A stretch of 63,332 bases of DNA, counting the filler, from Chrysochromulina tobinii (lineage: Eukaryota), in the NCBI GenBank assembly GCA_001275005.1. It is 4 parts of 4 records of this genome, joined end to end, with 100 filler letters (N's around TTAATTAATTAA, not from the genome) between each part and the next. Parts side by side here need not be neighbours in the genome. Positions count along the whole stretch, not along the records: positions 18,111 to 39,373 come from JWZX01001252.1; positions 39,474 to 58,759 come from JWZX01001256.1; positions 58,860 to 63,332 come from JWZX01001259.1; 1 more part is not named here. One strand, given 5' to 3'. Made by a program: the position numbers and the translations under genes. How positions within the stretch are numbered: position 1 is the stretch's first letter; each line of letters starts with the position of its first letter. Shown piece by piece: positions 21,809-63,332 of this stretch. Under the pieces are notes generated by a model that saw only the letters and a program-made list of their open reading frames with translations, did no database searches and was not told the origin of the DNA.

Positions 21809-24287
21809 ATGGACCTCGTCATCCATGCGGGCACGCTGAGCGTGCGCGACCCATCGAAGGACCACTTTGTTGAACGGTTCGCGCCACTCCCTAGACGTCG
21901 CCGGCCTGCCGCCGCCAGAATCACCACGCGCGCGTGCGTTATCAGCCGCCGAGCCACGCATGCTCCACGCCGAACTCATGCCGCAAATTGATGTACCCAT
22001 GCGCGCAGGTTCTTTGTGCTGCGGCCGACCGAGCTCGAGTGTCACCTTCCGGACGGGCAAGATGCCATGCCGCTCGACGTGATGCCACTCGCGACCACGT
22101 GGGTAAGCGGCAATCTGCATAAGGGATCCGAGCAGGCCATCTTCACCATCGAGTGCGTTGGCGAGCAGAAGAAGTGGGTGCTCGCCGCCAAGTCGGTCAC
22201 GCTCGCGAGGCAGTGGATCGACGCGCTCGAGAGCATCGGTGTGGGCCGGGACGACTCGAAAGCGCTCGCGCCCGCCGCTCTCTCACGTGCGCACACACAG
22301 CCGTTACATCTCCCGAGCGCCGCCACCACGTCTAGCGTGAAGCCGCCGCCCGAGTCGGTGCCCGCTCCTGTCAAGGTGCCTTCGCTCGGGGTGAAGATCA
22401 ACATCGCAGCGCTGACGTCATCCTCGCACGGCTCGCGTCACGAGACGACGCCGCGCCCGCTCTCGGCGCGCACGCCACGTGGAGTGACCACCTCTCGGAG
22501 CGCCCTGACGTGGCGAGGCCCGACGCCGTCTCACCTCGCATGCCTGTGGGGTCGCATCTTCATCCACTCGCTCTGCGGCACCGTCGGCCCGTGCATGTAT
22601 GAGCTCTTCGAGCTCATCGGGCACCCGTACTCCAAGCCCGCCGCCACGCTGTACGTGCTCCAGGCGTGGCTCTGCAGCGCCGTGCTCGAAGCCTGCGGCG
22701 GAGTGCGCCGCCGGTGCGTCGAGACGGCGCAAGCGATCGAGGCGTGCTTGGGATCGTGCTGGGCGTCGCGCGGCACATGGTGCGCGTGTCAGTGCATGTG
22801 CGCGGGCTGCCAGTGCATGTGGCGCTGGGCGTCGCCGCTGCAGCGCGACACGTGCACCAGCCCGATGAAGGAGGGATCGACTTCCAAATTAGGATCGACT
22901 TCCAAAGTAGGGAACCACGCGCACGCGGGGGCGAGCGCCGCCGTCGCCGCCTCCGCCACCACCACGAGCCTGTGCAGCGACAGCGACACGGCGGCGACGG
23001 AGAGCGGGAGCGCCCCTGGGGCAACGGTCACGAGGATGGCCACGTTCACGGCCGTTGCGCCCACGTTCACGGCCGTTGCGCCCACGTTCACGGCCGATAC
23101 GCCCACGGCCACTCCCAAGGCCAAACCGACCCTCGACGCGCAAAAGGTCACACGTCTGGACACTTTCAATGCGGACCGTTTCGGTTCAACGCCGTCACTG
23201 TTCACGCCCGGCGGACTGTTCACACCCGGCGGGAGCCCGACGGTGCCGACGCACCCGCATGCGTCGGCACGGCGCTCGCGCTCCTTCAACAGCTCGAACA
23301 TCTCCTTCTCCAAATGGCTCGTGGCCGAAGAGGGTGGCGACGAGGGTGGCGACGAGGGTGGGTCTGACGAACTTGACAAACTTGACGAAGCGCTCGAGCC
23401 GCTCGCGCCCCAGCTAGGCGAGCTCACGAAGATCGCGCCGCTACAGCGCCTGCTGCAGGCGCGCGACGAGGCCGCGCTCGCCGCCGCCGCATCCGCCGCG
23501 TCCAAGGACGACTCGCCGTACACCTGTGCGATGCTCAACGAGATTGAGGTGGAGCCCCATGAATGGCGCCGATGGGATGACCTCTGATGACCGCTGATGA
23601 CCGTTGATGACCGCTGATTGCCTCCCTCATCAGGCGGAGCTCCATGAATGGCGCCGGCGCGACGCGCACGAGTTCGTGCTCGCGACGTCGCTCGGGATCG
23701 CCTTCTTCTTGGATGCGTCGTATGCGATCGGCCTCTTGTGCGTGCAGACCGCCTCGTTCAACCCAAAGGCGGTCATCATCTTCCTGCAGGCCTTCTTCGG
23801 CGCGTACTTGGCCTACTTTCTCGCGTACTCTCTCTTCGTCGCCGCTCGTTGGCTGCCCCCTGCCGCGCAGTGCTATTGCTGCTCGGCGATCCCCTCGGCG
23901 ATCTTCCGGCTGCTCGCGCTGCTCGCGTGCCTCCTCTGCGCCGCCAGTGCCGTTTGCGAGCTGCTGCCCGTGATCGCGACGGCGCCGTGGCGGGCGCAGC
24001 CGGCTGAGGAGGGCGAATCGGCCGAGGGCGCCGTGCTGGGCGAGGGCGCCGTGATGGGCGAAGGCGCCGTGATGGGCGAGGGCGCCGTGACGCTCACCGA
24101 CCTGCTGAGCAGCGCCGGTCTGCTCGCGTTCTGGGGCATCGAGCTGCTGTGCTACCTAGCGGCTGCCGCGGCCGTCACGCGTCGTCTCGGGCTCCAGGCC
24201 TTCGAGGACAACCGGCCGTGGTTCTCTTTTGGTCCTGGATACCCGTCGAGGCGCTCGCATCATTGGAACCGCGCTGACCTCATGTGA
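21809..24287 (+). CDS. PH-domain membrane protein (3 exons)
   Basis: ATG 21809; introns 21877-22008 and 23549-23633 keep the frame. PH signature HAGTLSV...RFFVLR...WVLAAKS...ARQWIDAL; multi-TM C-terminus. Confidence 0.7.
23549..23633 (+). other. Duplication-plus-microsatellite intron (type example)
   Basis: Starts GTGGAGCCCCATGAATGGCGCCG, a 21/23 match to the next exon start GCGGAGCTCCATGAATGGCGCCG. Filler (CTGATGACCG)n; ends TGATTGCCTCCCTCATCAG. Removal joins NEIE|AELHEW in frame. Confidence 0.85.
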
Positions 24288-24650
24288 GCGAGTGCGGCGC
24301 ATTCTCCATTCAGTTCCCAAACCAACGCGACGCCGACGGGCGGCGTGTTCTAGGGACTACGATTAGGGAGGGACCCTTAAAACCGTCAAACATGAAAACA
24401 CGAAATTTAAGAAGACCAAAACACTGTCCGAGTCACTGTGAATTCCCTTGAAGTTGATTAATCTCCGTCTCTTGCGTTCCGCCTGAGGCCGCGCGTGTGG
24501 CCGAGTTGTTGTACAGACTGACCACGACCTCTGAGTGACTCGACCTCTGTGTGGTCGAGTGGGTCGTCTTTCTGTTCTTTCACACTCTTTTCGTCATGTT
24601 TCGTTCGTCTCGTCATCATGCAATGAGAAGTTTTTGTCCTTGTCGGGAAT

Positions 24651-26541: not shown

Positions 26542-26796
26542 CCTCTGCCGACAACGCGCAACGACAAGGCCCACAAGCATGTCTCTGACAGAGTGTTTGT
26601 AATTACCACGCCAGCACCCAACGTGCAACGTCTCTTCAGAGTTCACCGAGTGATCGACCAAAACCGGTAAGACCGAGGAATGGTGGGTTGCCCACGGTGT
26701 CCCGGTGTAAGACGACCCATACAGTTTCACGAGCGTCAGAGTCAGACCTCTGAATGAGCAAAAAATCAAGCCATTAAAATATAAATAATAACAGTG

Positions 26797-29700
26797 TCAT
26801 AGATCGATCTCCAATGTGTCCAGTTCTACGGGTGTCCTCTCAATTCGAGGTAGATCCTTCGAGGCGAGGGATGGGAGCCCGAGGGTGTTCGGGAGCAGGG
26901 TGCCATGGGGGGGGGAGGTGACATCTGTCTCGCCTTGCGCTTTCTGTGCATGCAAGGTCATGGCATCTTCGGCTGCTGAGAGGTGCTCCTCGAGCAGCTT
27001 CTTAGCGGTGGCCGACTGCTCCAACCATTCGACAAACTGCCTCGTGGCTTCATCCAGATCGGTGAGCATGCCTCCCACATCCTCGAGTGCGTCTCTGCCC
27101 GCCTTGCGGCCCGCCTCGACGTCGGCCGTTGCGGAGATGGGGGGGATCGCGCCCAGCGGTGGCGGGAAGACGCGTTTCCAATTCGTGGGGTGAGCGGCAG
27201 CTTCCTCGTGCAGCAACGCCATCAGCACAGGTATGACCAGCGCCACGTCGTGCTCGTCGTACCCCCGCCCCTGGGTGAATGCATGCACGAGGGCCCGCGC
27301 GCGCGAAGTGTACAAAGGGCGCTTAGGCCAGCCGTCCGCGCCCACCAGACGCATGAGGTCGACTGTGTCGGCTTGGGCTGTGAAGAGTTCATCATCACCA
27401 ACCATGAAGCCGTTGGTGTTCACCTGGAGGATGTTGGAAGGAGAAAGAGGCCATCCGTGGCCATCGGAAGGACATCAGAGGCCATCAGAGAGCAACTAGC
27501 TACAACTAGCGGCCATTGGTAGCCACCAGAGGCCATCAGAGGCCATCAGAGGCCATCACAGGCCATCACAGGCCATCACAGGCCATCACAGGCCATCACA
27601 GGCCATCACAGGCCATCACAGGCCATCAGCTGAGGATGCGCACCTCTTCGAGGAAGGCAGCTCCCGAGTCGTCCACGATGAAGTCTGGCGAGAGCATTAG
27701 GACGCGCCGATACGACGCGCCGCTCGCCTGCAGCCGCCGATGGAGTGCAAGTGGCTCGACGTTGCGCGCAAGAAGGACCGCCGCGACGAGCGCCTTCGCC
27801 ACTTGCGGCATCACCTGAGCCATCGATAAGCCATCGGGAGCCGTCAGAGGCAATCAGAGGCGATCAGGGCAAGTTCGCCTTTGCCAGTTGCGGCGTTGCC
27901 TGACGTCCCCAGAGGCTCGAGTCGTGCGCGACATGATTGCATTCAGCTGATGAGGGAAGCAATCACGTCCATGCATCACCTGTCGTTCCCACAAGCTCGA
28001 GTCGTGCGCGACGTCGCCGCGCCCGCGGAAGGCTGGGCCGAAGCGCAGCCCGCGCTGAAAGAGTGGAGAGGCCGTATGCGGAGGATATGGCGCCACGAGC
28101 TGTTCCTTGTCGCACCCTTCACCGAGGGGCATGCGCACGTGCATGCACGCACCTGATGAGAGGGGAGCAATCGTAAGCAATCAGTGGTCCACAGAGGCCA
28201 TTTTGGAGGCAATTAGAGCTCTCATCAGAGGCCCTCGGAGGCCCTCATTCCACGAGTACTCTTCACTTGCGAGCACATTGCGAGCACGCACATTTGGGCG
28301 ACGAGAGGCAATGCCGACCGACCACGTCAGTATCGGTCGAGTACTTCACTGTCGAGATCTTGGGAAAGGCGCGATCGAGCATGTAGAGGCGCAGCGGGTC
28401 GACGGAGGTGATGACCGCCCACACACGCATGTCAAATTTGCGTCCACGATAGAGGAGCGGGTGCTTGACGTATGCCTGCAGATCGAAAGGTGGTCATCAG
28501 TGGTCATCAGTAGCTATCAGTGGTCATCAGTGGTCATCGGTCATCAGTGGTCCTCAGTGCTTGACGTATGCCTGCAGCGTCCATGATCCGTCGAGGGGCA
28601 GCGAGCGAGAAAGCCATGCATGCATCGCCGCGTCCGAGCCGAGGTCGGCCTCGCCGAGGAGCACGAGTGATATGCCCACCTGCAAAGTTAGGGAGTGCAT
28701 CAGAGGCCATCCGAGGCCATCCGAGGCCATCCTAGGGAGAAGCGCACCTGGTTGAAGGACTGCTGAGGCTTGAGGATCCACATCTGGTGCGGCAGCTCGT
28801 TGCGGTCGCCGCCTTGGCTGCGTGCAAGCTCGAGCGCGTGTGCGCGCAGCGCAGACACGGGCCCATCAACGAGACCCTCGCCCCGGCGTACCTGATGAGG
28901 GAGGCAATCAGACGTCATCAGAGTGAGGAGGGAGGCAATCAGACGTCATCAGAGACCCTCGCCCCGGCGTACGTAATTGAAGCCGCGCTTGGTCCAGTCG
29001 CAATATGGTATGCCATCGGACCATGGGGATGGTATGAAGGAGGAGGAGGAGGAGGAGGAGGACAAGGAGGGCGAGGGCGAGGACGAGGACGAGGGCGAGG
29101 AAGAGGGCGAGGATGAGGCTCGCAAGGAGGCGCGCCGCAGCGGCTGCTCAGTGCCTTTCACAGTGCCTTTCACACCGCGCGTGCGGTTGTTCTTGGAGCC
29201 CTCGGCCCCGTCGCGCTGCGCCAGGCAGCTGTCATGCAGGCGTGCAAAGGCAAACTTGTCGCCAAAGGACGAGCGGAACCCGGGGATCGAGTTGACGAGG
29301 GCATGCTCTGCGATGGCGCCGTTGGCAAACTGTTCGGGCTTGAGCCACTGCTCGCCCCAGTACACGTCCCAGTGCGCGCTGTGCGTCTCGCACAGGCCAA
29401 GCGCGCGCAACGCGGCGGAGACGGATCCACGATAGTCGTGCCGGGATCCAACGGCGAATCGGCGGCAGCGGTGGCGCCACGAACTGCTGTGCGTCGTATG
29501 AGCGCCGTGATGAGCGTCGGTTCTCGAGCCGCCGCTCGCCTTGTAGGACTGCTGGCTCACATTGAGGCCGAGGCGCTGAGCTCGCCGATGCACATCGGCC
29601 CATAAGGCGCCAAACGCTCGGCGCGCCTGCAGAGCAGTCCACTCGTTCGTCGTGGGCAACTTCGCCTCGGGGGGCGTAGCGGGGGGGGGCTCCAGCTGCG

Positions 29701-39473: not shown

Positions 39474-42400
39474 GGAGGGGGAGGGGGGAGGGGAGGAGGG
39501 GATCGGGGGCAAGTGAAGGCAAGGGAGGACGAGACTGGAGAATAGGGGAGGGGTGTGGGGAATCTCGCACGCACCTCCGAGGTGAAGTCGTCATAGAGCG
39601 CGGGAAGCTCGTGTGGAAGTATCTTTGCCATCACCTCCATGCCCGCCTTCGTCGCCGCTTTGGCCGCCTTGAGCTCGGCCGCCGAGATCTTCCCATCACC
39701 GTCCATGTCGATTGCATGCACCTGTGGGGAGAGGGGCGGCGCGCCGTGACGAGCACTTGCATGCGCGTCCATGTCGATCGCGTGCACCTTGTTCTGACGA
39801 AGCCACTTCTTCGGTGCCAGGGGCGCCATCGTGGGCGCCCGCGTCAAGAGCCTTAGGTCCACATGGCGCTGCAGCATGTGCTGGAAGGCCGCCTTCTCCG
39901 TGTCGTCCTGGTGGGGTTGGAGGCGCGAGGTGGCGCTCATCTCGAGCGCGGAGCCCTTCGAGACCTCGGTCGCGATGGCGTTCTTGTAAATCTCGCCCAC
40001 CTGCATGTGATGAGGGAGGCCATCAGCATGCAATGAGGGAGGCCATCAGCATGAAATGAGGGTTGAATGAGGGCAACCCAGCAGGCCATCAGCATGCAAT
40101 AAGTCGCTCTCATTGGAGTCCTTCCCCAGTGCCCAATTAGGGACGCTCTCATTGGAGTCCTCCCCTAGTGCCTAATTAGGGACGCTCTCATTGGAGTCCT
40201 CCCCTAGTGCCTTATTAGGGACGCTCTCAGGGGAGCCTCGAGTGGGGCGGCGCTGCTCACCGTATTGACGAACTCGAGGCGCGCTGCACTGCTGCGCTGC
40301 TTCGGCGTGAGTTCCGTCAATCCTTCATCGACGAAACCCTGGGGCGCGATCACGTCGTATCTCTCGGTGCGCAGCCGGTACTTGTAGATCTGGTCGACGA
40401 TCTGATGTGCGCCCATCAGGCACGTCGCCCACCTGCATGCAATGAGGGAGGCAATCAGCATGCAATCAACGATCTGATGTGCGCCCATCAGGCACGTCGC
40501 CCACCTGCATGCAATGAGGGAGGCCACCAGCATGCAATGAGGGAGGCAATCAGCATGGCAGTTACTTTTGGCGAGGGCGCATTTGCAGCTTCAGCATGCA
40601 ATGGGGGAGGCAATCAGCATGGCAGTTACTTTTGGCGAGGGCGCATTTGCAGCTTCAGCGCACCGACGGCCGTTGAGAGCATGGGCAGAAGGATGACGAA
40701 GAGTCCCCACCATGTCATGCCCGCTACGGCGCCTCGATCGGCCGCGATGGTGCTCACGACAGCGCCCACTCCATCGCCGCCCGCGACGGCGCCTCCCTCG
40801 CCCGCGACGGCGTCTCGATCGGCCGCGTCTTCGCCTTCGCCACCCCATGTGCCATTCATCATCTCGTCGCGAGATTCACCCTCGGATTCACCCCGAGATT
40901 CAGGCCCGAGCGCTGCACCGAGCGCAATCTCGCACCCCTCGGCAGTGTACAGGATGGCCACGGTGGTCGAGATGATGGCGAGCGCATAGAGGAGGATCTG
41001 CAGCCGGTCGCCCACCTGCATGCAATGCCAATGGGGGAGGCAATCAGCCTGCAATATCAGCCTGCAATCTCGGCATGCAATCTCGGCATGCAATCTCGGC
41101 ATGCAATCGGCTGCAATCAGCTCATTGGCCACCTGCTTGAACTTGGTAGCATTCTCCCACAGGATCATGTGACGCTTCCATGCAGTCAGCACGCAGAGTA
41201 CCTGCACCACACCGTGACTGCGATCCTCAGCGTGCAAACAGGCGCCATCCGCATGCAATCACACCCGCAATCAGCCCGCAATCAGCATGCAATCCGGATG
41301 AAATCGACCTCGGCCTCGCCGAGCCCGAGCTCGTGGATGATGGCGCAATCACACCCGCAATCATCATGCAATCAGGATGCAATCAGGATGCAATCACCTC
41401 GGCCTCGCCGAGCCCGAGCTCGTGGATGATGGCGCAATCACACCCGCAATCATCATGCAATCAGGATGCAATCAGGATGCAATCACCTCGGCCTCGCCGA
41501 GCCCGAGCTCGTGGATGATGGCGCCGCCCGAGAAGCACGTGAATAGTACCGAGAGCACCTGCATGCAATGAGGGAGGCCATCAGCATGCAATGAGGGAGG
41601 CCATCAGCATGCAATGAGGGAGGCCATCAGCATGCAATGAGAGCACCTGCTCCGATGCGTCTGCCATCACGTCGACAGACATGATCGTATTCTTGAGCAG
41701 TACGGGCGCGCGCTGGTGCAGTTCCTTGAGCATCACGATCTCGGGCAGCCCAAAGAGTTTCGTCCACGCCGCTCCCGACGTGAGCTCGCACCTGATGAGG
41801 TTGGCAATCAGCCAATGCGATCAGCATGCACTCAAGACAGCCCACCCACACAGAGAGTTTCGTCCACGCCGCAGCCGAGCTGTGAGCTCGCGCACATCGT
41901 GATGAGCTCGCTTGCCGAGGGCGATGGCAGCTGTGAAAGCAAGCCGCGACGTAGCGAGGCGAAGGCTTGGGTGACGGAGCCCGTCTGATCGAGAAGGACA
42001 ACAGACTTGCCCGTCTGTGCTCACGCGAGCGAGGGGGCACCGCATCCAAATTAGGGCATCGCATCCAAATTAGGGTATCGCATCCAAATTAGGGCATCGC
42101 ACCCAAGACGCTCAGCGCGACGCCGCGGCACCGCGAGCGACCGACGCACCCACACCGCTGATCAGTCGCACAATCAGGCTCGCTCAGGCGCGCTCTTGGA
42201 CGTAGAGAGATCCCCCACCTGAAGCAGCTGCTTGAGGCGTGGAAGCATAGCCGCAATCAGCATGCAATCAGCATGCAATCACCTGAAGCAGCTGCTTGAG
42301 GCGTGGAAGCATAGCCGCTTGGCCGTTGGCGACGAGATAGCCCAACGGCCCGACGGCGGATAGGTCGGGAGCGTCGAGCACCTGATGAGGGACGCAATCA

Positions 42401-44097
42401 GCATGCACTCAGGGAGGCACTCAGGGTACGTCACCTGATGATGAGGGACGCAATCAGCATGCTGATGAGGGATGCAATCCACAGTGCACTCGGCATGCAA
42501 TCAGCATGCTGATGAGGGATGCAATCCACAGTGCACTCGGCATGCTATCCTATGCACCGAATCCAGCAAGATGTAATGAGTGCCCCGGTTGAACAAGGTC
42601 TGCATGTAGTGAAGGCCCCACTTCTCACGAGGCGAGAAGAGGCCGTCGTGACCGAGCATCGCCTCGTCTGCGTTGCGTGGCACCTGCATGCTGCTGAAGG
42701 TCGATGGGTCCCTGACGAGGGTCGCAATCAATAGGGCGCTCGTTGGAGCACTCCAAGGCACTCACACAAGCAATCACACAAGCAAGCCGATGTCCACGAT
42801 TACATGTAATCCTCCACATCATAGAATTGCGAAATCGTCTCGCAATCCGGCGGCTCATCGGAACCCAACGGCCTCGCGCCCCTTCGGATGAGCGTGCACT
42901 TATCGAGGCACGACTGCGTAATGGGTGCCACGCCGCCCCGTTCGCCCCCTTCGCCCCGGCTCTGCAGTCCGTGAAGTCTCTCCATGGAGTCGATCACCAC
43001 AATCGGGGGCCGCGAGTCCGTCAGCTTCATCGCCGCCTCGATGAGTAACGCCGCTGCGGGCGAGGGGCTCAATTAGAGAGCAATTAGAGCGCAATTAGAG
43101 CGCAATTAGAGCGCAATTAGGGGGCAATTCGAGCGCAATTAGAGGGCTCTCCGCATAGTCACTCACCTGAGGGCGAGGGGCTCTGCACGTAGTCCACGAT
43201 CAACCAGTTGGGCGTGCGCGAGAGGGTCGTGGCCGCATCCAGCAGCGCCGCAAAGACGTTCACCAGCTTCGCGAACAGGATCTCATTGATGATCTTGAGG
43301 GCGAACTCGTTCACACCCTCAAGGCATCCGGCGCCCTCGTTCACACCGGCCCGAAGCGCCTGTTGTTGGGCGGCGGCCCGAAAGCTGCTGAACGAGGGAA
43401 GGGCAATCAGCCCCGGCGTGGCAAAGTCTTTCGGATGGAGGTGTCCCGCGTCCGAGACGATGAGCGTCTTGGGTGGATCTAGTCTCCAATGTCCAACGAA
43501 CAGGCGCTGTAGCTGCGCCGACGATAGGACATGGCGCTGGCCTGAGCGCCTGTCCTTCGGCACGAAGCAGACCTTCGTGCGCTGTCCAGTCTCCTTGCAG
43601 ATGTACTCGCCGCACGTGAGCGTCTGGTCGCCATCGCCGTCCTTCTCGTCGGCCTCGCGCTCGGCCTCCACCAGCTTCGTCGATCCAATCTCGCCGAGCT
43701 CGGCCTCCACCAGCTTCGTCGATCCGATCTCACCGAGCTCGGCCTCTACCGGCATGCCGTCGCTTGTGGGCGGCGCGGCCTCGGCGGGAGGTGATGCAAG
43801 GGACGGCTCGGCTCGAGCGGAGAGGTAGCCGTCAAGGTCTGTGTTGCTGGGCATGCGCATCGAAAATCCGGAGTCCACGCCAAAGCCTGGGTCGGGCGCA
43901 GATGGCGCGTACCGATCCTGCTGCGCCGGCGTCCACGATGCGGTCAGCTCCGTGGCGCTCGAGCCTGGCTCAAACGTGGGCGCAGCCCGCCTGGGTGGAC
44001 GCGCCGCCGCCGCTGACAGATGCCGCATCGCCGCATCCACAAATTGCAGCTGGACGTCATCGTCCATGTCACTGGCGGCCGGGACCGTTGTCGCCAT
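39474..44097 (-). CDS. SLOG (LSDAT/TRPM-N-like) + SLATT two-TM effector + EF-hand protein, at least 12 exons, 3' end in gap
   Basis: Spliced motifs WRLDPPKTLIVSDAG, RGTHYILLD, LGYLVANG, GKSVVLLDQTGSVTQAF (SLOG-like); AWKRHMILWENATKFK..DRLQILLYALAIIST, LFVILLPMLSTAVGAL....P.QKWATCLMGAHQIVDQIYKYRLRTERY (SLATT-like); DMDGDGKISAAEL (EF-hand). Confidence 0.75.
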
Positions 44098-44219
44098 CGA
44101 GTCGGATTGAACCCGTTCGCTGAAAACATAGTTCTGATGAAATTCGTGCAAAAAGTGGAATGCATGCTCGGATGCTGTTCAAAAGGACTCACTACAGGAT
44201 CTCCACTCTGCCAAGGCTT

Positions 44220-47059
44220 TCACACCGCCCACAGGTGCAACGCTCGATCATAAAACGAGCACGTCGCTGCGACCATACGCTCGCCCGTCTCGGCGCCCCT
44301 GGAGGTTGCCCCCGCCGCCTCCACCGCCGACCCCCCAGATGGCGGCTGGACGATGGATCCGGCGAGGACGACGCCAAGGAACGTGCCCGTGCCCTCGTCA
44401 CGCAAAGGGGCCACAAACGACACCAGCCGATCTCCGGTGGCTGGGTCAACGTAAGGGTCAGTCCAGCGAGCCTCGGCCGAGATTGGATCTCCCTCGGCCG
44501 AGATTGAATCTCCCTCAGCCGAGATTGAATCTCCTTCGGCCGAGATTGAATCTCGAAAGGCGACGAGCCAGGGCCGCGAGCGCACGTCCCAGGTGGCGCC
44601 GTCCTGAGCGCGCCACTCGTAGATCACGTCGCCCTCCTCACCTGCACTCAGACGCCATCAGACGCAATCAGACACACTCGGACACAATCAGACGCAATCA
44701 CAGAGGCAATCAGACGCAATCAGAGGCCATCAGAGGCCATCAGAGACACTCAGAGGCCATCAGAGGCCATCAGACGCAATCAGAGGCCATCAGAGGGCTC
44801 ACCGAGACAGCGCCAGACGCCAGGCTCCCCCACTGTCATCGTCAACGTCGAGCCATAAGCGAGCTCGCCTGATGAGGGAGGCCATCAGAGGCTCATCAGC
44901 ATGCAATCGTCAACGTCGAGCCATATGCGAGCTCGCCTGAGCTCGAGAGGATCTCGCGATCAGACGCAATCAGACGCAATCAGACGCAATCAGAGGTCAT
45001 CGTCGAGCCGTATGCGAGCTCGCCTGAGCTCGAGAGGATCTCGCGGTCGATTCCGTATGCCGCGTAGTATGTGCCATCGAGCGCTGACGCGACGCCGAGC
45101 ACCTAATGAGGGAGGCCATCAGAGGGTCATCAGTGTGCAATCAGAGACCATCGAGCGCTGACGCGACGCCGAGCACTTCGATCGAGAGAGGGGCGTCCCT
45201 AAACAGGCAATCACCTTCGAGTGAGAGAGGGACGTCCCTAAATAGGCAAGCAGCGCCGTCGGAATGCATGCACGGATCTTATCGAGCAACGCCTCCCGCC
45301 CGTGTGAGAGCGGCTCGGCTCCAAGACAGTCACGCAGCTTCAAAGCCGCCGACTCACACGCGTGACGCAGCAGCTGTTCAGAGCCCTCGGAGGTCCTTGC
45401 CTGATTAGGAGTGCCGTCGGAGGTCCTTGCCTTATTAGGAGAGCGCCGCCAGTCTGCACCGTATCCGAGGCCGCCCGCGCCAAGCCCGTGGGCCGTGTAC
45501 TTCGCAATCTGCTCGAGGGTCACGACGAGATTCTTAGTCACCACCTCCTTCTCCTTCTCCACCTCGCCCACCACCTCGTCCTTCTCCTCCTCCTCCTCCT
45601 CCGCCACCACCGCCCGGAGCACGGCGAATCCCGCATGCATACGCGCTGCTAAGAGCACCTTCGGACGCTCCGGATGCCATCGGAGACGCCACACGCCACC
45701 GCCGTCGCCGCCCTCCTCGGCAAGGGGCGCGCGGAGCTGCCGCGTGTCCCACAGGCGGACGGTTTCGTCATAGGAGCCCGTCGCGAGCAGGTGCTCGTGA
45801 TCGGGACAGGGCGCGATGCAGCACACCTGATGCAAACGGGCCATCAGAGCCGCAATCAGCATGCAAACGAGCCATCAGAACCGCAATCCGCATGCAAATG
45901 GGCCATCAGAGCCGCAATCAGCATGCAAATGGGCCATCAGAGCCGCAATCAGCAGATGCCCGTGATCGGGGCAGGGCGCGATGCAATACAGCAGCAGCAT
46001 GCGCTCGAGACGGCGCTCGTCCAGGTGCGCGCCGAGCTGAGCGCCGAGCTGAGCGCCGAGCTGAGCGCTAGCTGGGAGGCGCGCCTGGCGGCGGTGGAGG
46101 CGGAGCGTTTGGGCTGGCGCTCAACACGGCGCGTGAGGGCTGGCGCGAGGCGGCGGCCCTGTGTGGATTTCCAATTGAGTCGCAATCAATGGCCAATCCA
46201 TGGCCAGTCGCACCCCGGCCCTATGCGGATTTCCAATTGAGTCGCAATCAATGGCCAATCCATGGCCAGTCGCACCCCGGCCCTATGCGGATTTCCAATT
46301 GAGTTGCAAGCAATGGCCAATCAATGGCCAATCAACGGCCAGTCGCACCCCGGCCCTATGCGATTTGCGGTTGGTCGCCGTCGCCGAGGGTGTTCCACAG
46401 CCACCGTCGTCGTCGATGGCAGTGCGCAGATCCCAACGCTTGAAGAGGCCGTCGTCTGCGCCCGAGTAGAGCGTGTGCTCGTCATGCCATCCGAACGCCA
46501 CTGCCCAGCCCTCCAGCTCATGCGCCTGCCACGCCGTCAGCAGCCGAAGACCGCCCTCAGCTAGAGCACCGACGTATACCTTGCCTGCGGTGCTGCTGAG
46601 TGCGAGGCGTGTGAAGGGCGTGTCACTCCATGCGAGGCTCATGCACACGCCCGCATCCTCACACGCCATACTTCCGGCGTCCACGAGCTCCGATCCGCGC
46701 CCGTTTCCATCCGCGCACCCAGCGGCGGCAGCAGCGTCGGCACCGCGCAGCGAGTAGAGATGCGCAGTTCCCGCGGCGGTGGCGAGCGCGAGCACGTGAG
46801 GTCCACCAGGCCGAGGGGGTAGCCACGCGCAGTCCAGGACGCCGGTGCCCTCGATCGCATGGGTCTCGACAAGTGCGTCCGCCGCGGTGGAAAGCAGCGC
46901 GAGCCTCCCGATGCGCCCTCCACTCACCGTTGATGGATCCGCGTCCGGAGTCAGTTCGTAGCTCCCACAAGCCAGCAGATGCTCGTGCCCCTCGTAGGGG
47001 CAGAAGGCAACAACGTCCGCGTTCAGAGGCGTTCCCTGCGAGGCAAGGGTGGTGGGCAT
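44220..47059 (-). CDS. DPH7: Diphthine methylesterase DPH7/WDR85 (WD40) with an internal Cache-like insertion
   Basis: ADVVAFCP, LACGSYEL, GVLDCAW, AHELEGW, YSGADDG...WDLR, H.AGVCCI, LATGSYDE.VRLWD.R, GGGVWRLRWHP, MHAGF, YGADW, and terminal ATCSFYDRALHLW. Intron 46348-45827 plus others. Confidence 0.88.
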
Positions 47060-47270
47060 GATGCTCCGCCTCGCCCGTCGGGACCCCCCTGGCGGCCCGC
47101 GTCCCGGGGCTTCTTCCGTCTCGGCGCAAAAAGTTGCCTCTGGCAAAGGCTCTACACCAACGAGCCTTCAGTCGCCACGTGTGTGGGCGGTCTTCACATG
47201 AACGTGTCGCGTCCGACGGTTCGGCTCTCGCGTTGGTCCCTTATCGCTGCCGCCTTGCTCGGACGCGCTC

Positions 47271-48599: not shown

Positions 48600-48950
48600 T
48601 CTATGCTCACGCACGAGAGAGACGAGAGCCCCTGGTCTCTCCACGGTCCGCACTCTCTACGTTCACCAGATTACACCACACACCACACATGACCGGACTC
48701 CACGATACAGTACGCCGGGCCACAACAACGCATGACGAATGTATAATGGTGTAATAGACAAATAGACCAGCAGGGAGTTAGAGGGGAGTGCGAAACTGCG
48801 AATAGAGCGCCAGTCCGCGAGGCGGCTCGGCCTTATCCTTTTTTGGGTGCAAGTTGGCGGAAATCACAAACGGTGGCCGTATCCGAGAGTTTGTTGAACA
48901 TCTTTGAACCCCGGCCAGGCCAGCCGCCTCAGGAGCTGCGTGCAGTTCAC

Positions 48951-52899: not shown

Positions 52900-53033
52900 T
52901 GAGCTGTGCGCGTGCAGAGAGGAGGGGTGATGGAAGGACATACGGCGTCGCCCCATCTCCTCTGCCAAAGTCGGAGGGCAACGGTCATCAGTTGCAATCG
53001 GTGGCAATCGGAGGTCATCAGTGGCAATCACAC

Positions 53034-55256
53034 CTGGCCTCAAGCTGAAGCAGCGCCTCATCCGTGGCAAGAAAGTCAAGCATTGCGGACGGCGTCAGAC
53101 CGAACTGAGGCGAGAGCTGCGAGGCGAGATCGCTCGAGATCGATGAGTGCCAATCAGAGCCAATCAGTGGCAATCAGTGGCAATCAGAGCCTATCAGAGC
53201 CAATCCAAGCCAATCCGAGGCAATCAGTGGCAATCCGTGGCACTCACTTGCGAGGCAAACTCTTGGAGCTCACGCGGCGTCTCGAGCGCGCCCAGGAAGC
53301 TCATCACACCGCTCGCGCTCAGGCACTGCACCGCGTCGTAACGGGCGCTCAGGCAGCCCATATTAGGCAATTGCGTCGAGCTCAGCGCGGAGGTGGCGCC
53401 GTGTTGGGCGCCTGCGCCGGGCGCCTGCCCGGCGAATGAGACGAGATCGAGATCGCTCGAGATCGGTGAGTGCCAGTCAGAGCCAATCAGAGCCAATCAG
53501 AGCCTATCAGAGCCAATCAGAGCCAATCAGAGCCTTTCAGAGCCACTCGGTGGCCCTCACCTGCCCGGAGATCGTGACGAGCTTGAGGTCGGTCGCGCCC
53601 ACGGGACGTTTGGTTCGTAGTTTCGATTTGGAGCCGCCGGAGCCTTTGCCTGGGCTGCTGCCGCCACCATCCTCGCCGGCGGCGCTGGCGCTGGCGCTGG
53701 CGTTGGCGTTGGCGTTGGTGCTGCTGCTGCTGCTGCAGGGCGGAGGAGGCGGCATCATGTCCCTCGGCATCATGTCCCAAGTCGCCGCCGCCACCGCCGC
53801 CACCGACGCCGCAGACAGCCCGCTCGCCATCGCACCCCCCTGCGAAGCGCCGTGCTGGGCGGTAGCGCCGTGTTGGGCGACAGCGCCGTGTTGAGCGGAC
53901 GTCGCCCCGGCACTACGGCTTCGCTTCGCGGCTGGCTCGGGCGCCCGCGACGGCGCTCGCCTCGCCGCCGTCGCCGGCAGCGCCGCGCCCGAGTCCGCGC
54001 CGTACTGAGCGCTTGCATGCGCGCCCCCGCGTGCTCCTCGCACGGCTTCCGCAGGCACGCCGGGGTGGATGACGTCGGGGAATTCGGGCAGCTCTGATGA
54101 CGTCCTCATCACGTCATCAGCGGCGCCGCCGAGCACGTCGGCGAGCGCTGCCGTCATCGGTGAGGCTCCAATCGAGAGGACATCTCCAATCGAGCCGCCG
54201 ACCGCCGCCGACGAAGCTGACGAAATTGACCAGACCGACGAGATTGACGAGATTGACGAGACTGCGCCCGCAGCCGGTTTCGTCACTGGCGGCGGTTTCG
54301 CGAGGGTGCCGCCATGCTCAGGCGGATACGCGCCCGGGCTCGGCGTCGCACCGATGGCATTCTGCAGCCGGGCGGTCGCGTCGAGCAGCTCGGCTGGCGT
54401 TCGCGCGCGCTGTGAACGAGGGTGTGAACGAGGGACGAGGCGCCGTGGTGAGCATGCAGAGGCGAGGCGGGAGAGGGCATTCAGACGAGTCCTAAGATGG
54501 CACTCGTCCCAAATTGGCACGCGTCCCAGAAAGGCAATCGAGGTCCCACTCACGAGCATGCAATCGAGGGCCCACTCGCGAGCATGCAATCGAGGGCACA
54601 CTCACGAGCATGCAAAGCAGCGCATCCAGACCGCCTTGAGCGACCGCCGAGCGCGGCGCAGAGCCCTCGACGACAGGGAAATCGATGAGCTGCGCGAGCG
54701 ACGACTGCGGGTTCGTGCGCAGCAGGTTGTTGATCTTCGCCGCCTCGATGTGCGTCGGCGTGCCCATCGTCCTCGACGGCTCCGTGCCCGGAAGCGACGG
54801 CAGCCCCTCCGGGAAGCCCTTGGGTAGCTGGCCGTCCACGAGCATGTGTGCGATGTTCTCGCCGCGGCGGAGCGCCGAGTTCCAATGGTTCTTGACCGCG
54901 TTGTCCGTGCGCCCGGGTAGGTACTTGGCAATGTCCGCCCACTTGTTGCCAAACTCGTCGTGGAGCTGCATGAGCTTGCGGTCCTCGTCCAGCGACCAGG
55001 CGGACTTGTTGATGTCGTGGTCGAGGTGGTTGTGCCAGCGCTCGCGGCACTGCTTGCCCGTGCGCCCGGGCAGCGACAGCGCCACAGTCGTCCATGCGCG
55101 CGTCCCGTGCTGGTGCACGAGGGCGCGCACGGTGTCGTCCTCGAGCTGGGTCCACTGCTTGCGCTGCGTCCCCGATCCTCGCGCGGAGACTTCTTCGTCG
55201 TCCGCATCGATCGAAGCCTCGACGATCTGGGCGCTCGAGGATCCCGCGTCGCTCAT
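53034..55256 (-). CDS. R2R3-type MYB transcription factor, at least 4 exons (3' end uncertain)
   Basis: WTQLEDD...W...LPGRTGKQCRERWHNHL...WSLDED...GNKWADIAKYLPGRTDNAVKNHWNS. Introns 54605-54410, 53560-53425, 53247-53105. Confidence 0.92.
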
Positions 55257-55452: not shown

Positions 55453-58254
55453 ATGCCGCGCCCTGCGGTGGCGTCGGCTAGGACGCCGTTTGACGACGAC
55501 GAAGACGTTGCCTTTCCGCACGAGGACGAGGCAGCGTATACGAGTGCCGAGGTGCTCCCGACCACGGACGAGCTGCTCGAGCTCTCCGGCGAGGACACAC
55601 TCGACCAGATCCGCGAGGTGGTGCTGCGCGAGCGCGGCCTGCGCGAGGTGGGCAGCCTGCTGCGGCAGCTGCCGCGGCTCGAGGTGCTCTCGCTCTCGAA
55701 CAACTGCTTGCACTCGCTCGTGGGCTGGCCGCCGCTCCCGGAGCTCACCGTGCTCAACCTCAACTTCAACCGGCTGTCGTCGCTCGAGCCGCTCACGGTG
55801 TGCACGCGGCTGACGAAGCTGTACGCCGCGTCGAATCGAGTGGGCGCGATCGGCTCGCTCGCCGCATGCACCGAGCTGCGATGCCTCTCGCTCTTCCGCA
55901 ACCGCATCAGCTCCCTCGACGCTGCCGTCAACGCGCTCGCCGCGCTGCCTCATCTGACCGAGCTCGATCTCGGAGCCAACCCGTGCGCCCTCGGCCCGGC
56001 GTACCGGCACCGGCTGGTGGCGGCGCTGCCCGCGCTGAGCAGCCTGGACGGCGACACGCTCACCGAGCTCGACTACGAGATCGCCGTCGGATTCCTCGAG
56101 GAGGGGTCGCCGGCGGACGCCCAACACGGCGCTCACCCCGAGCACGGAGACGCCCAACACGGCGCGCGCGGCGAGCAGAGCGGCGGCAGCGGCGGCAGCG
56201 ACGAACGCTCCCGTGCGCCCACGCTCCGCGCGGGTGGCGAAGGCGGCAGCGTCGCGAGCAGCAGCAGCGGCAGCCTCGGCGGCGGTCTTACCGGTAGCCG
56301 ACGAGGCGCCGCAGACGTTCTCGTCCTTGATGATAGTGGTTACGGAGCGCCGTCGCGGTACGGAGCGCCGTCGCGCGCGCAGCCGCCCTTCGTGCCGGGC
56401 GGCGATGGTGGTTTCGACAGGGCGCTGGGCGGGGCGCTGGGCGGAGCCCATGGCCAGCGTCTCGATAGCGATGAGGAGGAGGACGACGACGACGATCGCG
56501 GACGCGGCGCAGGCGGGCCCATGGACGCGGTGGCATCGGCGATGGCGGCGGCGGCGGCGGCGGCCGATGCGGCTGAGTGGCAAATGGACGGCGGCGCTGG
56601 TGGCGGCCTCGCAGCCGAGGAGGGAGGCATGGGAGGCATGGAGGAAAGCTACGCTGCGCAGCGGCCAACCTCAGCGGCCGTCCGCCCCAGCACCTCCTCT
56701 CGTCTTCACACCGCCTCTCGTCTTCACACCGCCTTCGGCTCACACCCGGCTACCGGCTTACCGGTCAGACCTCACGGAGCGTTGAACGCCTCCGCCCCCC
56801 GCCCCGGCACCGCCTCCGCCAGGCCCGGCACGGCCACAACGCTCGCCACAACGCGCCTCGAGTCGGCGTATACGCGCTTAGGCACCGCCTCCGGGGCTCG
56901 CCCTGGCACCGCCGCCAACAGCCGCCCTGGCACCGCCGCCAACGGCCGCCCTGGCACCGCCACAGGCGGCGGAGGCGGCGGCGGCGGCGGCGGGGAGCGT
57001 CTGCCGATGGCTTCCGGCTCAGTGCGCGAGGCCTCTCTCTTCCGAGACCCCTTTTTGAACACCAACCCCATTCTACTCGAGTACCTCTCCCAAGCCGAGA
57101 TAGAGAAGCATGCGGAGGGGGCCGGCAGCAGCCGCGGCAGCAGTCGCGGAGGCAGCCGTGGCGGCGACGGGCACGGCGACGGCCTGAGCGACGGCTACCG
57201 AGAGGAGGGAGTAGGCGAGAACGGCTCGGCCCTCGGGGCCGCCTACGTCCCCAAGGGCGCTTGCCTCTCTCTACCTGATGGCACAGCCGCAGGGGTCATC
57301 AGCCTGCGGCGTCCGATGGTGGAACGACTCCGACTGACTGCCATCACGATGGAACGAAATCAGGAGGTGAGCCTCGAGAGGCCCTCTGATGACGACTGAT
57401 GACCTCTGATTGCCTCCAATCAACTCTGATGACCTCTGATGACCTCTAATTGCCTCTGATTGCCTCCAAGTGACTCTGATGACCTCTGATGACCTCTAAT
57501 TGCCTCATGATGGCCTCCCCCATTAGGTGAGCATCGACACCCTCGCCGCCTCGGCGCTCTTCGACGGGCAAGAGGCCGAATGTGGCGACGCGGCGACAAC
57601 TGAACTGCGCCGGCTGCTCATCGCGCTCCAGGTGCGTGCCCCTGATTCCATCTCATTCATTCCCATCTCATTCCCATCTCATCGCCATCTCATCGCCATC
57701 TCATTACGAACGAATGGCTCCTCCTCCCTAATTACGAACGAATGGCTCCTCCTCCCTAATTACGAACGAATGGCTCCTCCTCCCTAATTACGAACGAATG
57801 GCTCCTCCTCCCTAATTACGAACGAATGGCTCCTCCTCCCTAATTAGGACGTGACCTCGGAGCGAGACCAAGCCCGCAAGGAGCTCGACACGGCGCGCGA
57901 GGCGGCGCACGCGCGCGCCGTCGTCCTGAGCGCCTCGGACGCCGACGGCGCGCCCAACACGGCGCTCGACCCCCTCGGTGCGGCAGAGGAACTCGCGGCG
58001 CTTCGGAAGGAGAATGCGGTGAGCTTCTGATGACCTCTGATCACCACTGATCGCCTCTGATGGCCTCTGATCACCTCTGATCGCCTCTGATCACCTCTGA
58101 TGGCCTCCCTCATCAGGAGCTGCGCAAGGAGAACGCGAATATGTTCACGCTCATGGAGGAGAATGACGCGCTGCGCAATGAGACGCAGACGCTCCGGCTG
58201 CGCCTCGAGTGCCTCGAGCAACTCGCGACGAGCATCCAGGAGGACTGCCCATGA
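55453..58254 (+). CDS. SDS22-like LRR protein with LRRcap, RPGTA repeats and C-terminal coiled coil (likely ciliary/centriolar), 4 exons
   Basis: LEVLSLSNN, LTVLNLNFNRL, LDLGANP...YR..LV..LP.L..LDG. Introns 57367-57526, 57632-57847, 58019-58116 keep the frame to TGA 58252-58254. Confidence 0.85.
57703..57847 (+). repeat. Intronic 28-nt tandem repeat x5 (ATTACGAACGAATGGCTCCTCCTCCCTA) ending at the acceptor
   Basis: Period of 28 at 57703, 57731, 57759 and onward. Confidence 0.9.
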
Positions 58255-58396
58255 GCGCCGTGTTGGGCGCCTCGAGCAACTCGCGACGAGCATCCAGGAG
58301 GACTGCCCTTGAGCGCCGTGTTGGGCGCCTCGAGTGCCTCGAGCAACTCGCGACGAGCCTCCAGGAGGACTGCCCATGAGCGCCGTGTTGGGCGCA
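58201..58396 (+). repeat. Triplication of the LRR gene's last codons and stop
   Basis: CGCCTCGAGCAACTCGCGACGAGC.TCCAGGAGGACTGCCC.TGAGCGCCGTGTTGGG x3. Confidence 0.9.
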
Positions 58397-58759
58397 CTTT
58401 AGATCCGCCCATGGGAAAAATCCGAGAGGCTTTATCACTCGTCGTCCGTATGGACTCTGAGCACAGCCAGCATTGCCAGGGCATTGAACGTGCCCTCAGG
58501 CGTGCGCGGCGTGTCCGCGTGAGTCGCGCGAGCAAGCAGAGACGCCTGACGGCCCAACGACCGATGCGATCTCCTGCAAAGATTCTAAATTGAATACATT
58601 TGCATGCCCGGTCGTGATTTTTGGTTTCTCAGTACCGGGAGGTGGCCCCTCGGCATTGTGACTCAGAACCGGGCCCTCAGAGGTGGGGAGGCTCGATACA
58701 ACGCGCTGACCCTCTTCACGCACGCTCGCATTTTATGGCACGCCTCGTCGCGACGATGG

Positions 58760-58859
58760 NNNNNNNNNNNNNNNNNNNNNNNNNNNNNNNNNNNNNNNNN
58801 NNNTTAATTAATTAANNNNNNNNNNNNNNNNNNNNNNNNNNNNNNNNNNNNNNNNNNNN
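58760..58859. other. Artificial contig spacer
   Basis: N44-TTAATTAATTAA-N44. Confidence 0.97.
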
Positions 58860-58889
58860 TGCAGGCCTTGTCTAGGGACGCTTATTAAA

Positions 58890-60870: not shown

Positions 60871-61508
60871 TAGAACCAGACGACAGTCACGAGGACGGAA
60901 TGACCCGAATGAAACGACAGGAGACCACGTTTGGAGACGAGGACGTTGAAGAGCAGGCTCATGATACCGACGGTGACGCCGTAAGGGACGGAAGCGGAGC
61001 GGATGGCACGAGGGCGAAGAGGCGCGCGACCGGGGACGGAGGCACGACAGACGGCATCAAGCAGCGCGGGGAACGCGGCGGAAGATCGGAGGCGGCCCAC
61101 AGGGCTAAACGGCGCAAGCGAAACGACAAGTACGGAAACGAGGCGACGTGAATTACCGGAGGACTGGCAGCGCTTGCGCAGCCAGGCTGATCCCAACGTG
61201 CTCCACTACGAGAAATACGCGACGCCAACCGACCCTTAGTTTTAAAAAGAATTGCTCGCAGGTTTTCCTCCCCACCTCTCAAAACATTTCAAGGCATGGA
61301 CGGGCCGCGCCTAGCAATAGGTTCCCAGAGCCGAAACGTAACCGGGTAACCGGGGGGTACTCCGTAGTCCGGGGAGAGCAGAGACTGCAGTGTGACGGCT
61401 GTCGGGAGTCTGTGTACGCTCAACAGCCAACCCGTGTTGACTAGCCTCGCGGCCAGACGCGCGGCGCACCGGCGCCGTCCACATCCGCAATGAGCGCCGT
61501 GATGGGCG

Positions 61509-63332
61509 TCAGATCCGCAGTGAGAGCGCCGTGGTGGGCGTCAGGTCCGCAGTGAGCGCCGTGGTGGGCGTCAGGTCCGCAGTGAGCGCCGTGGCGGCAT
61601 CTTCAAACGCGCGGAGCGATGCGACCGCAAGCTCGGGCTGTGCAACGGCTTTGAGTAATGAGAGAGCGACGCGCGCGGTCTGCGTCTCGCCGGGCATCGT
61701 GAGCATCGGCGTACCCGCCCACAGAGCGTCAGTGCCACTCGTGTGCGCGTTGCAGAGCGCCGAGTCGAGCATCAGGTCGCAGTGCTGTGCGCGGCGTAGG
61801 TGCGCCACGTGGCGTACTGTGGGCAGGCCGATGAGCGCGGCGCGCGGCGGCGGCGAGGCATGCGCATGCGCCTCGCGTCTCAGGTGAGCCTCGCCCGCCG
61901 CGGGGAAGCGGAGCAGCCAGAGGCGCGTGCACGGCGCCCGTGCCGCCGCGCGCGAGAGCGCATTGAGCCATGCGAAGTAGAGTGAGGGGTCCAATTTAGG
62001 CAGCTGGTTGAGCGAGCAGAGCAGTACGCAGTGGGGGGGGAGACTGTCCGCCGAGGGCGGCACGCGACTCCGCAGCAGCTCCGCGTGCGACGCCGCGTAG
62101 TCGTTGAGGTAGTACGTGTGGGGAAGCAGCACTAGGCGCTCGGTGAAGCCTAATTTGGCTAGATGCACGGGCACGGCGGCGGTGTCGACATAAGTGTACT
62201 GGATCGCGCCCGGGGCTCCGCATGGGCCCGGATAGCCCATGTATGCCGCCCGCACAGGCGCGGCTGCGAGCCCAAAGAGACCGAACCGTACCTGCGATCA
62301 GATGCAATCAGATGCAATCAGATGCAATCAGATGCAATCAGAGGCAATCAGAGGCAATCAGAGGCAATCAGCGAGCCCAAAGAGACCGAACCGTACCTGC
62401 CACCAGATGCAATCAGATGCGATCAGATGCAATCAGATCACAGATGCGATCAGCGGCCATCAGAGGCAATCAGCGCGCCGGCGTGGCTGTATACGCCCAA
62501 CGCGCAACTCGTTTTGTGTCGGCCGCTGCATTCTAAGGTTGCCCGTTGAGGTTGATGGCGAGGTGGAGGCAATCAGAGGCAATCAGAGGCAGTCAGAGGC
62601 AGTCAGAGGCCATCACCGTCTCGGACGCGGCATTCCAATGGTGCCCGTTGAGGTTGATGGCGAGGTGGAGGCAATCAGAGGCAATCAGAGGCAGTCAGAG
62701 GCAGTCAGAGGCAGTCAGAGGCCATCACCGTCTCGGACGCGGCATTCCAATGGTGCCCGTTGAGGTTGATGGCGAGGTGGAGGCCTTCGCGAGTCATAGC
62801 TTCAATGGCGGCACTGGTAGGCAAGGAGCGAATGCGTGTGAACGAGTCGACTGCGCGGCGAGTCTCGTTAAGGATGGCCGAGCCGTCGTCATCGGACTCG
62901 GCGAAGAGGACCACACGCAGGCGTGATCGGTCGTAGCGCAGGAAAAGCGAGCGCGTGAGTCGGAGCAGATTGTGATCTCGAAAGTACGACGAGACGAACC
63001 CGATCACAAGGCGTGTGAGACGGCCGGTGGCTCCGGTCGGCGCTGACGAAACTTCGGTCGGTGCTGACGAAACTTCGGTCGGAGCTGACGAAACTTCGGT
63101 CGGCGCTGTGCCCGCGGCGGCGACGGCGGCGGCGGCCGTCGAGGTTGCCCGTCGGGGGCGAGGCTGGGTGGGTGCTCGACTCGGCGCCTCCTGCAAGCCC
63201 AGCTTGGCAGCCGTGGCCGCGCGCGACACCGCCAGCAGCTCCGTGGAGGTGAGAGGCGAAGTGAGCGCCCCGACGGGATCAACATTGAGGGTGGGGAGCA
63301 CCTCAGGGTTGCGAATCGCCGAGCGCAGGAAG
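61509..63332 (-). CDS. GT41 O-GlcNAc/O-fucose transferase (OGT/SPINDLY-like) catalytic region; 5' part outside window
   Basis: IGFVSSYFRDH, HLAINLNG, AP+.A.YMGYPG, FTERLVLLPHTY, SLNQLPKLDP, LWLLRFP, DLMLDS..CNAHTSGTDALWAGTPMLT. Intron 62728-62292 restores the frame. Confidence 0.9.

What the first reader, a model, noticed from the sequence alone, without database searches (positions are those of the whole stretch)
23549..62728. Family of introns built from an exon duplication plus a microsatellite filler: a candidate intron-gain system
Seen: many introns carry a direct copy of the adjacent exon edge, and that copy supplies a splice site. Intron start matches the next exon start at 23549-23633 (23 nt, 2 mismatches), 28972-28892 (21 nt, perfect), 28571-28476 (21 nt spanning the junction), 28291-28153 (8 nt), 39787-39722 (22 nt), 41646-41559 (8 nt) and 57367-57526 (~13 nt); a 29-nt copy at 45148-45176 matches exon 45074-45102. 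Intron end matches the previous exon end at 43166-43054 (AGCCCCTCGCCC(T/G)CAG) and 53560-53425. Between the copies usually lie tandem ~10-mers (TGATTGCCTC, TGATGGCCTC, TGATGACCTC), often closing with TGATTGCCTCCCTCATCAG. Removal restores conserved motifs (TTL, SLATT, DPH7, OGT). Known: introner transposons co-opt splice sites from short fixed-length TSDs. Inference: 8-40 nt variable duplications with iterated short filler fit staggered-break repair or target-primed, reiterative templated synthesis better than a cut-and-paste element. I cannot check whether this has been described for this lineage.
Basis: partly seen in the sequence, partly recalled or inferred. Interest (0 to 1): 0.9.

Follow-up and report, generated by a model that had tools for sequence, protein, structure and literature searches.

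The report
Alga making new introns by duplication
Many introns of the freshwater alga Chrysochromulina tobinii begin with a copy of the next exon's start and end in a short piece shared between unrelated genes; one is missing in very close relatives, so they are likely new introns, made by a still unidentified insertion process that duplicates 8-40 bases of its target.

Summary
In 30 modelled introns (7 genes), 8 begin with a copy of the next exon's start (0.07 expected by chance). A shared ~19-nt 3' end occurs in 13 introns, always in sense. RNA contigs support splicing of 13 of the 30.
Gain is supported by relatives' proteins. Intron 28476-28571 is absent from 13 of 14 informative ORFs of a 97%-identical relative on contigs up to 19 kb. 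The fourteenth carries a different intron at the same junction. A ~70% relative lacks all six TTL-gene introns and has two of its own.
Two later processes overlay this. The repeat arrays change by whole units between strains, and exon edges are re-duplicated inside standing introns ('mirages'). So not every copy marks a birth, and the filler need not be made at insertion.
It works like an introner, but fails the fixed short duplication and end-to-end similarity tests. A published introner survey lists zero families for this genome. The enzyme and the template (intron DNA or RNA) are unknown. This scan noted one such intron before, elsewhere in this genome (e1-2577349).

The parts
28476..28571 (-). 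GC-AG intron in a TTL-family gene; 21-nt perfect duplication across the junction; recent gain
   Evidence: Pfam TTL; absent in 13 of 14 informative ORFs of a 97% relative, another intron in P0104; present in X15/X16 contigs; splicing not seen
28892..28972 (-). Intron: 21-nt perfect copy of next exon start, two 31-nt filler units, shared 3' cassette
   Evidence: absent in P0013/P0107; splicing not seen
28153..28291 (-). Intron with 8-nt copy of next exon start
   Evidence: present in the 97% relative (15 of 15 read into it), absent in P0013/P0107/P0108
27815..27979 (-). Intron with 7-nt start copy and an internal degenerate copy of the exon-exon junction
27424..27643 (-). Intron with long 10-mer array, no clear exon copy
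   Evidence: spliced in X2 record 25; array
28680..28747 (-). Intron with filler; possibly eroded start copy (10/14)
   Evidence: position shared with the 97% relative, 3' sequence differs
23549..23633 (+). Intron: 23-nt copy (2 mismatches) of next exon start, filler, exact 3' cassette
   Evidence: removal opens the frame; no RNA or relative data
39722..39787 (-). 66-nt intron, 22-nt start copy, second kind of 3' cassette, no 10-mer filler
   Evidence: same splice in NCBI model P0023
41559..41646 (-). Intron: 8-nt start copy plus three 23-nt units; unit number varies between strains
   Evidence: removed in X10 record 9 by length account
41792..41895 (-). Intron starting with a degenerate ~40-nt copy of the next exon
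   Evidence: X10 record 9 length account
43054..43166 (-). Intron ending in a 17-nt copy of the previous exon end (mirror type)
   Evidence: spliced in X10 record 9; position shared with 91-97% relatives, with another start sequence in 14 of 15 listed members of one cluster
42015..42282 (-). Intron with internal 36-nt copy of previous exon end plus donor (mirage type)
41202..41486 (-). Intron with two internal copies of exon end plus donor (mirage type)
40433..40629 (-). Intron with internal copies of both exon edges (mirage type)
42382..42557 (-). Intron made of several cassettes each ending in CAG; L002 has an extra exon-end copy
44869..45023 (-). GC-AG intron: start copy, filler, junction-spanning copy, filler, 3' cassette
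   Evidence: 155-nt skip in X2 with 17 ambiguous letters
45103..45214 (-). Intron holding a ~67-nt copy across the exon-exon junction, including 45148-45176
   Evidence: spliced in X1 and X2
45827..46348 (-). Long intron in the WD40 gene with copies of both exon edges
44642..44802 (-). Filler intron; L002 begins with an extra filler plus exon-end unit
53425..53560 (-). Intron ending in a degenerate copy of the previous exon end; shares its interior with 53117-53247
   Evidence: splicing not seen
53117..53247 (-). Filler intron with 8/9-nt end copy
   Evidence: spliced in X1, X2
52962..53033 (-). Filler intron, no exon copy
   Evidence: spliced in X1, X2, X10
57367..57526 (+). Intron with 10/11-nt start copy and 3' cassette
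58019..58116 (+). Filler intron with 3' cassette, no exon copy
62292..62728 (-). Intron in a GT41 (OGT-like) gene with 56-nt exon-end copies and a 26-nt exon-start copy (mirage type)
283..321 (-). The cassette without its AG end, between two copies of a 9-nt direct repeat, outside any modelled intron

Best explanation
These are spliceosomal introns, some of them recent gains, likely made when a short piece copied from the 3' end of an existing intron is inserted at a staggered break in a gene, duplicating 8-40 bases of exon whose first two letters (GT or GC) then serve as the donor. Shown: the copies, the shared 3' cassette ending at AG, splicing of 13 of 30 introns, and absence of one intron in close relatives with another intron at the same junction in one of them. 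Inferred: the break, copying by microhomology-guided template switching, and an intron-derived template (DNA or excised intron RNA, not separable here). After birth the branch-point-like units expand by slippage and the exon edges are re-duplicated into the intron, which hides the origin.
For: Start copies in 8 of 30 introns vs 0.07 expected; 22 of 30 next exons start with GT/GC. The cassette motif has 24 matches vs 0.05 expected; 23 lie in introns, all in sense, in 13 introns of 5 genes. The 24th sits between 9-nt direct repeats. Junction 28572|28475 is intron-free in 13 of 14 informative ORFs of a 97% relative; all 15 cluster members read into the next intron and several lie on 15-20 kb contigs. 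P0104 has a different intron there, whose translation resembles window intron 39722-39787. P0013/P0107 (70%, 10-kb contig) run through all six TTL junctions and carry two introns of their own, one with the same filler. A 34-41% paralogue in genomic locus L004 has a stop-free 1,010-codon frame across the junctions it aligns to. Another intron with a 12-nt start copy occurs in L004. Microhomology of >=3 nt at 12 of 16 assessable joints vs 20% of 1,920 null joints. Filler 9-mers are shared more within genes than between (0.071 vs 0.041, p=0.02).
Against: Relatives were read only as predicted proteins, not DNA; P0104 is one 2.6-kb contig. Direct presence/absence among close relatives is shown for one intron only; L002 and X15/X16 share every position they cover. 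Seven of the nine introns named with coordinates in the finding were not seen spliced (23549, 28892, 28476, 28153, 39722, 53425, 57367). Nine of 25 joints could not be assessed, and the microhomology null understates chance extension. Mirror-type introns (43054, 53425) do not fit a fixed 3' end, and position 43166 holds another start sequence in 91% relatives, so introns can be rewritten in place. Three distant homologues seem to have an intron one or two codons from junction 43167|43053, which could be sliding. No enzyme or master element was found; the genome was not available.
Confidence: 0.62

Rival explanations
1. A non-autonomous retro-element: a short RNA, possibly an excised intron, is target-primed and reverse-transcribed by a borrowed LINE- or Penelope-type enzyme. 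This would give a fixed 3' end, a variable 5' end and a variable duplication. It is a specific version of the best explanation.
For: Fixed cassette end at AG with variable 5' joint and duplication; two cassette types; sense-only and almost absent outside introns; none of 29 introns in the first third of the CDS (KS p=0.002). A Pavlovales introner family that co-opts its 5' site is classed non-LTR (PMC12130899 supplement).
Against: Mirror-type introns; no RT found; no Rfam RNA in the window or L004; the copy at 283-321 lacks the AG end. The 3' skew may reflect low-complexity N-termini or introns I missed.
Confidence: 0.2
2. Old introns are remodelled in place. Duplications across existing splice sites, followed by loss of the older part or patching from spliced cDNA, leave an intron that starts with exon sequence, with no new position gained.
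For: Mirage-type copies in 9 of 30 introns; strain-specific extra copies in L002; position 43166 holds different sequences in relatives; junction-spanning copies in three introns.
Against: It cannot explain 28476-28571, which is absent in the sister lineage and in all outgroup ORFs that cover it, nor the six TTL positions missing from P0107. It does account for part of the copies.
Confidence: 0.13
3. A conventional DNA-transposon introner whose ends have decayed.
For: Donor taken from the duplication and acceptor carried by the insert, as in Polarella classes 4/5 (10.1101/2020.10.14.339549).
Against: Duplication is 8-40 nt rather than a fixed 3-8 nt; no shared terminal inverted repeats in 10 introns; even perfect-copy introns share only their 3' end.
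Confidence: 0.05

Closest known systems
Introners that co-opt the 5' splice site from the target duplication (Symbiodinium; Polarella glacialis classes 4/5 and 6/8/10; bioRxiv 10.1101/2020.10.14.339549, parts 1-2 of 4 read)
   Same: Donor from the upstream duplicate, acceptor carried by the insert, one orientation, G-rich exon starts, phase-0 excess (20 of 29 here)
   Different: There the duplication is fixed per class (3-8 nt), and the Symbiodinium elements have inverted repeats. Here it is 8-40 nt, without TIRs, and only a ~19-nt 3' end is shared
Haptophyte introners in Gozashti et al. 2022 and 2025 (PMC9860276 passages; PMC12130899 section 6, passages and supplement rows)
   Same: Same algal group; E. 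huxleyi fam24 is noted with 10-bp terminal direct repeats, co-opting 5' and carrying 3'
   Different: The Chrysochromulina sp. MAG family has a 4-bp duplication and co-opts the 3' site. C. tobinii GCA_001275005.1 is listed with 0 families, and the 2022 pipeline filters out microsatellite-rich candidates
Daphnia pulex neointrons attributed to staggered double-strand-break repair (PMC4202315 passages)
   Same: Exon-end direct repeats, presence/absence alleles, parallel gains at one site, internal repeats in young introns
   Different: Repeats of 4-12 bp and inserts of mostly unknown source, against longer repeats and shared cassettes here
Amphioxus 'mirages' (PMC3087553 passages)
   Same: Tandem copies of exon-intron boundaries inside standing introns, unit number varying between haplotypes
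   Different: Mirages copy an existing boundary; they do not give an intron that starts with the next exon and ends in a cassette shared across genes
Intron gain by tandem genomic duplication of AGGT (PMC3443670 passages)
   Same: Duplicated exon supplies a splice site
   Different: The intron body here is foreign filler, not the duplicated exon

Membership tests
Introner (DNA-transposon type) | Many introns similar end to end | tested here: not met
   Only the 3' ~19 nt and repeat units are shared; mean 9-mer sharing 0.04-0.07
Introner (DNA-transposon type) | One splice site taken from the target duplication | tested here: met
   8 of 30 introns start with the copy, which gives GT/GC
Introner (DNA-transposon type) | Fixed short duplication (3-8 nt) | tested here: not met
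   Start copies of 8, 8, 11, 15, 21, 22, 23 and 28 nt
Introner (DNA-transposon type) | Terminal inverted repeats | tested here: not met
   No shared TIR in 10 introns
Introner (any type) | Recent gain, shown by absence in close relatives | tested here: met
   28476-28571 absent in 13 of 14 informative ORFs; protein-level evidence, one intron
Introner (any type) | Autonomous partner or mobilising enzyme | not testable with these tools
   No genome held
Non-LTR target-primed insertion | Variable duplication, fixed 3' end, 5' joint with microhomology | tested here: inconclusive
   Fits the start-copy introns; mirror-type introns and the 283-321 copy do not
Non-LTR target-primed insertion | RNA template and RT/endonuclease | not testable with these tools
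   No genome; Rfam scan blank
Break-repair intron gain (Daphnia type) | Exon-edge direct repeat and parallel gains at one site | tested here: met
Break-repair intron gain (Daphnia type) | Insert mostly without a recognisable genomic source | tested here: not met
   Cassette shared by 13 introns in 5 genes
Mirage | Tandem copies of an exon-intron boundary in a standing intron, varying between haplotypes | tested here: met
   42015, 41202, 40433, 45827, 62292 and others; extra units in L002
Tandem genomic duplication | Intron consists wholly of duplicated exon | tested here: not met
   Filler makes up most of each start-copy intron

The most novel reading that the evidence does not exclude
Introns beget introns: the 3' end of an excised intron RNA (branch point to AG) is copied into staggered breaks in transcribed genes, with no transposon at all. 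This would be an active, spliceosome-fed intron-gain cycle, with at least two cassette families hitting the same junction in parallel, invisible to current introner screens.
Probability: 0.2. Interest if true: 0.93.

Novelty: new variant of a known kind. Interest (0 to 1): 0.74.

Why it matters
Where new introns come from is an old open question, and transposon introners are currently held to be the only source of bursts of gain (PMC12130899). Here a cultured alga with a 59-Mb genome (PMC4580454) shows ongoing gain, empty alleles and a parallel gain, with a footprint that the standard introner screen scored as zero families. Empty and filled alleles in lake populations make the mechanism directly testable, and similar repeat-filled introns in other genomes may have been filtered out.

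Tried and rejected
No whole genome was held, so there is no genome-wide count and no RT search. Cassette and array patterns gave 0 matches in viral contigs. In genome contigs they gave 0 matches, then 1 isolated match in a bacterial record, taken as chance. Rfam gave nothing. The first protein search timed out. The E. huxleyi genome paper is not held; my recall that it reports 10-11 bp intronic repeats is unverified. Copies taken from a diverged coding allele or cDNA: differences fall 11/9/16 on codon positions 1/2/3, which does not support this. A template among spliceosomal RNAs was considered from recall only and not tested. RNA runs X2 and X10 barely cover the TTL gene; lack of cover is no evidence. 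Many joints come from filler-bearing contigs of other loci and were ignored. An apparent read-through of P0005 at 28292|28152 is the start copy itself, not absence.
Full report
Source. A protein search named an NCBI model on a 19,286-nt contig as Chrysochromulina tobinii Ctob_010612, 100% identical to the query exon. The window is therefore taken as this haptophyte.

Observation. I modelled 30 introns in 7 genes; removing them leaves open frames, and homologues align across the junctions without indels. Eight of 30 introns start with a copy of the next exon scoring >=8, against 0.07 expected from 870 non-cognate pairs. Copies anywhere scoring >=10 occur in 10 of 30 (next exon) and 11 of 30 (previous exon), against 0 of 870. 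The set was chosen from filler-bearing genes; five candidate plain introns elsewhere show neither feature. The filler core occurs 102 times in sense and 4 in antisense. The terminal cassette motif has 24 matches (0.05 expected), 23 of them in 13 introns, all in sense. Its branch-point-like motif typically sits 17 nt before the end (the branch point itself is inferred).

Splicing. RNA contigs skip 45103-45214, 52962-53033, 53117-53247, 44869-45023 (17 ambiguous letters) and 43054-43166, and 27424-27643. One X10 contig has 661 letters between 41011 and 42803, where the model has 662 exonic letters with one shared. That supports seven more introns in sum, although two acceptors were chosen with help from homologues and this count. 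So 13 of 30 have RNA support. Not seen spliced: 23549, 28892, 28476, 28153, 39722, 53425, 57367, 62292 and others. An assembly artefact is unlikely.

Gain or old introns. Gene callers run on metagenome contigs read through until a stop, so ORFs reveal intron positions. P0005 (97% identical) enters from the intron at 28680, leaves into the intron at 28153, and runs straight through junction 28572|28475. In its cluster of 15, 13 run through, one starts after the junction, and P0104 has a different intron there; all 15 read into the next intron. Contigs reach 15-20 kb, so these are DNA. P0104's read-in resembles the translation of window intron 39722-39787, a second cassette type; it rests on one 2.6-kb contig. 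Outgroup ORFs at 54-70% that cover the junction also lack the intron, so gain is the simplest reading, twice at one site. P0013/P0107 lack all six TTL introns and carry two others, one with the same filler. P0011, P0015 and P0016 share an apparent intron that the window lacks. For the 11-intron gene, a genomic paralogue is intron-free. Among 69 distant hits, 40 run through the first junction, but many may be transcripts, and three seem to have an intron one or two codons away. Closer strains (L002, X15, X16, P0019-22) share all positions they cover.

What happens after birth. Intron 41559-41646 is 42, 88 and 111 nt in three strains, in steps of the 23-nt unit. Nine introns hold internal copies of an exon edge, most with the splice site, and L002 has extra units in two introns. 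Position 43166 carries another start sequence in 91% relatives. These are slippage and mirage-type events in standing introns. They explain the OGT-like intron and several others without any gain.

Mechanism. The start-copy introns read: upstream exon, copy of next exon start (GT/GC), joint, filler, cassette ending in AG, next exon. Twelve of 16 assessable joints share >=3 nt between copy and filler (null 20%, probably understated; 9 of 25 joints not assessable). Filler is modestly more alike within genes (p=0.02). The cassette also occurs once between 9-nt direct repeats outside an intron, as an insertion process would leave. I infer templated insertion of an intron 3' end at a staggered break. 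A DNA template fits the mirror-type introns and local sharing. An RNA template fits the fixed AG end, the near absence outside introns and the 3' skew in genes (0 of 29 in the first third). I could not separate them.

Known work. Introners with a duplication-derived donor have fixed 3-8 nt duplications. Daphnia neointrons have 4-12 bp repeats and parallel gains but mostly unknown inserts. Mirages match the secondary copies. The 2025 introner survey lists C. tobinii with 0 families (supplement files 13-14 not searched). The genome paper mentions introns once (term search; its supplements not read). Nine paper searches returned no description of this architecture; subscription journals are mostly not covered. 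This scan earlier reported a 66-nt intron with a 15-nt duplication in the same genome; I did not check its metagenome count.

Verdict. A real and apparently active intron-gain process, a new variant beside introners and break-repair gain, overlaid by ordinary repeat turnover. Interest 0.74.

Noticed in passing
window 283-321: The intron-end cassette, lacking its AG, lies on the minus strand between two copies of a 9-nt repeat; a 30-nt addition outside any modelled intron.
   Followed up: partly
window 52901, 53406, 53875-53893, 56122-56155, 57955, 58265-58390, 61536-61566: A 10-nt motif recurs in exons of three genes (giving AQHGA- or LTTA-like peptides), in a 3' repeat and in two introns; a related word lies in intron 39722-39787. 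Possibly unspliced inserts of the second cassette type.
   Followed up: no
window 25704-25822: Three 40-nt units, each running from GT through filler to CAG plus a short exon-like piece, in the F-box-like gene; looks like tandem mini-introns.
   Followed up: no
window 149-224, 1909-2120, 34416-34555, 34722-34855, 37974-38098: Five candidate plain introns with no filler and no exon copy; unverified, possibly an older class.
   Followed up: partly
window 42382-42557: Intron built of several cassettes each ending in CAG, as if inserted serially at one junction.
   Followed up: partly
L004 6298-6365: 68-nt candidate intron with a 12-nt perfect copy of the next exon start; removal opens a frame.
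   Followed up: partly
window 39576-44097 and L004 9700-12633: A widespread membrane-protein family (70 hits) with no convincing Pfam match in the exons tested; 11 introns here, none in the paralogue.
   Followed up: partly
window 50988-51143 and 52399-52610: An inverted pair of related non-coding stretches flanks a short ORF.
   Followed up: no
window, whole: Introns cluster in a few genes, while genes at 47230-48800 and 48914-50490 are covered by unbroken RNA contigs.
   Followed up: partly
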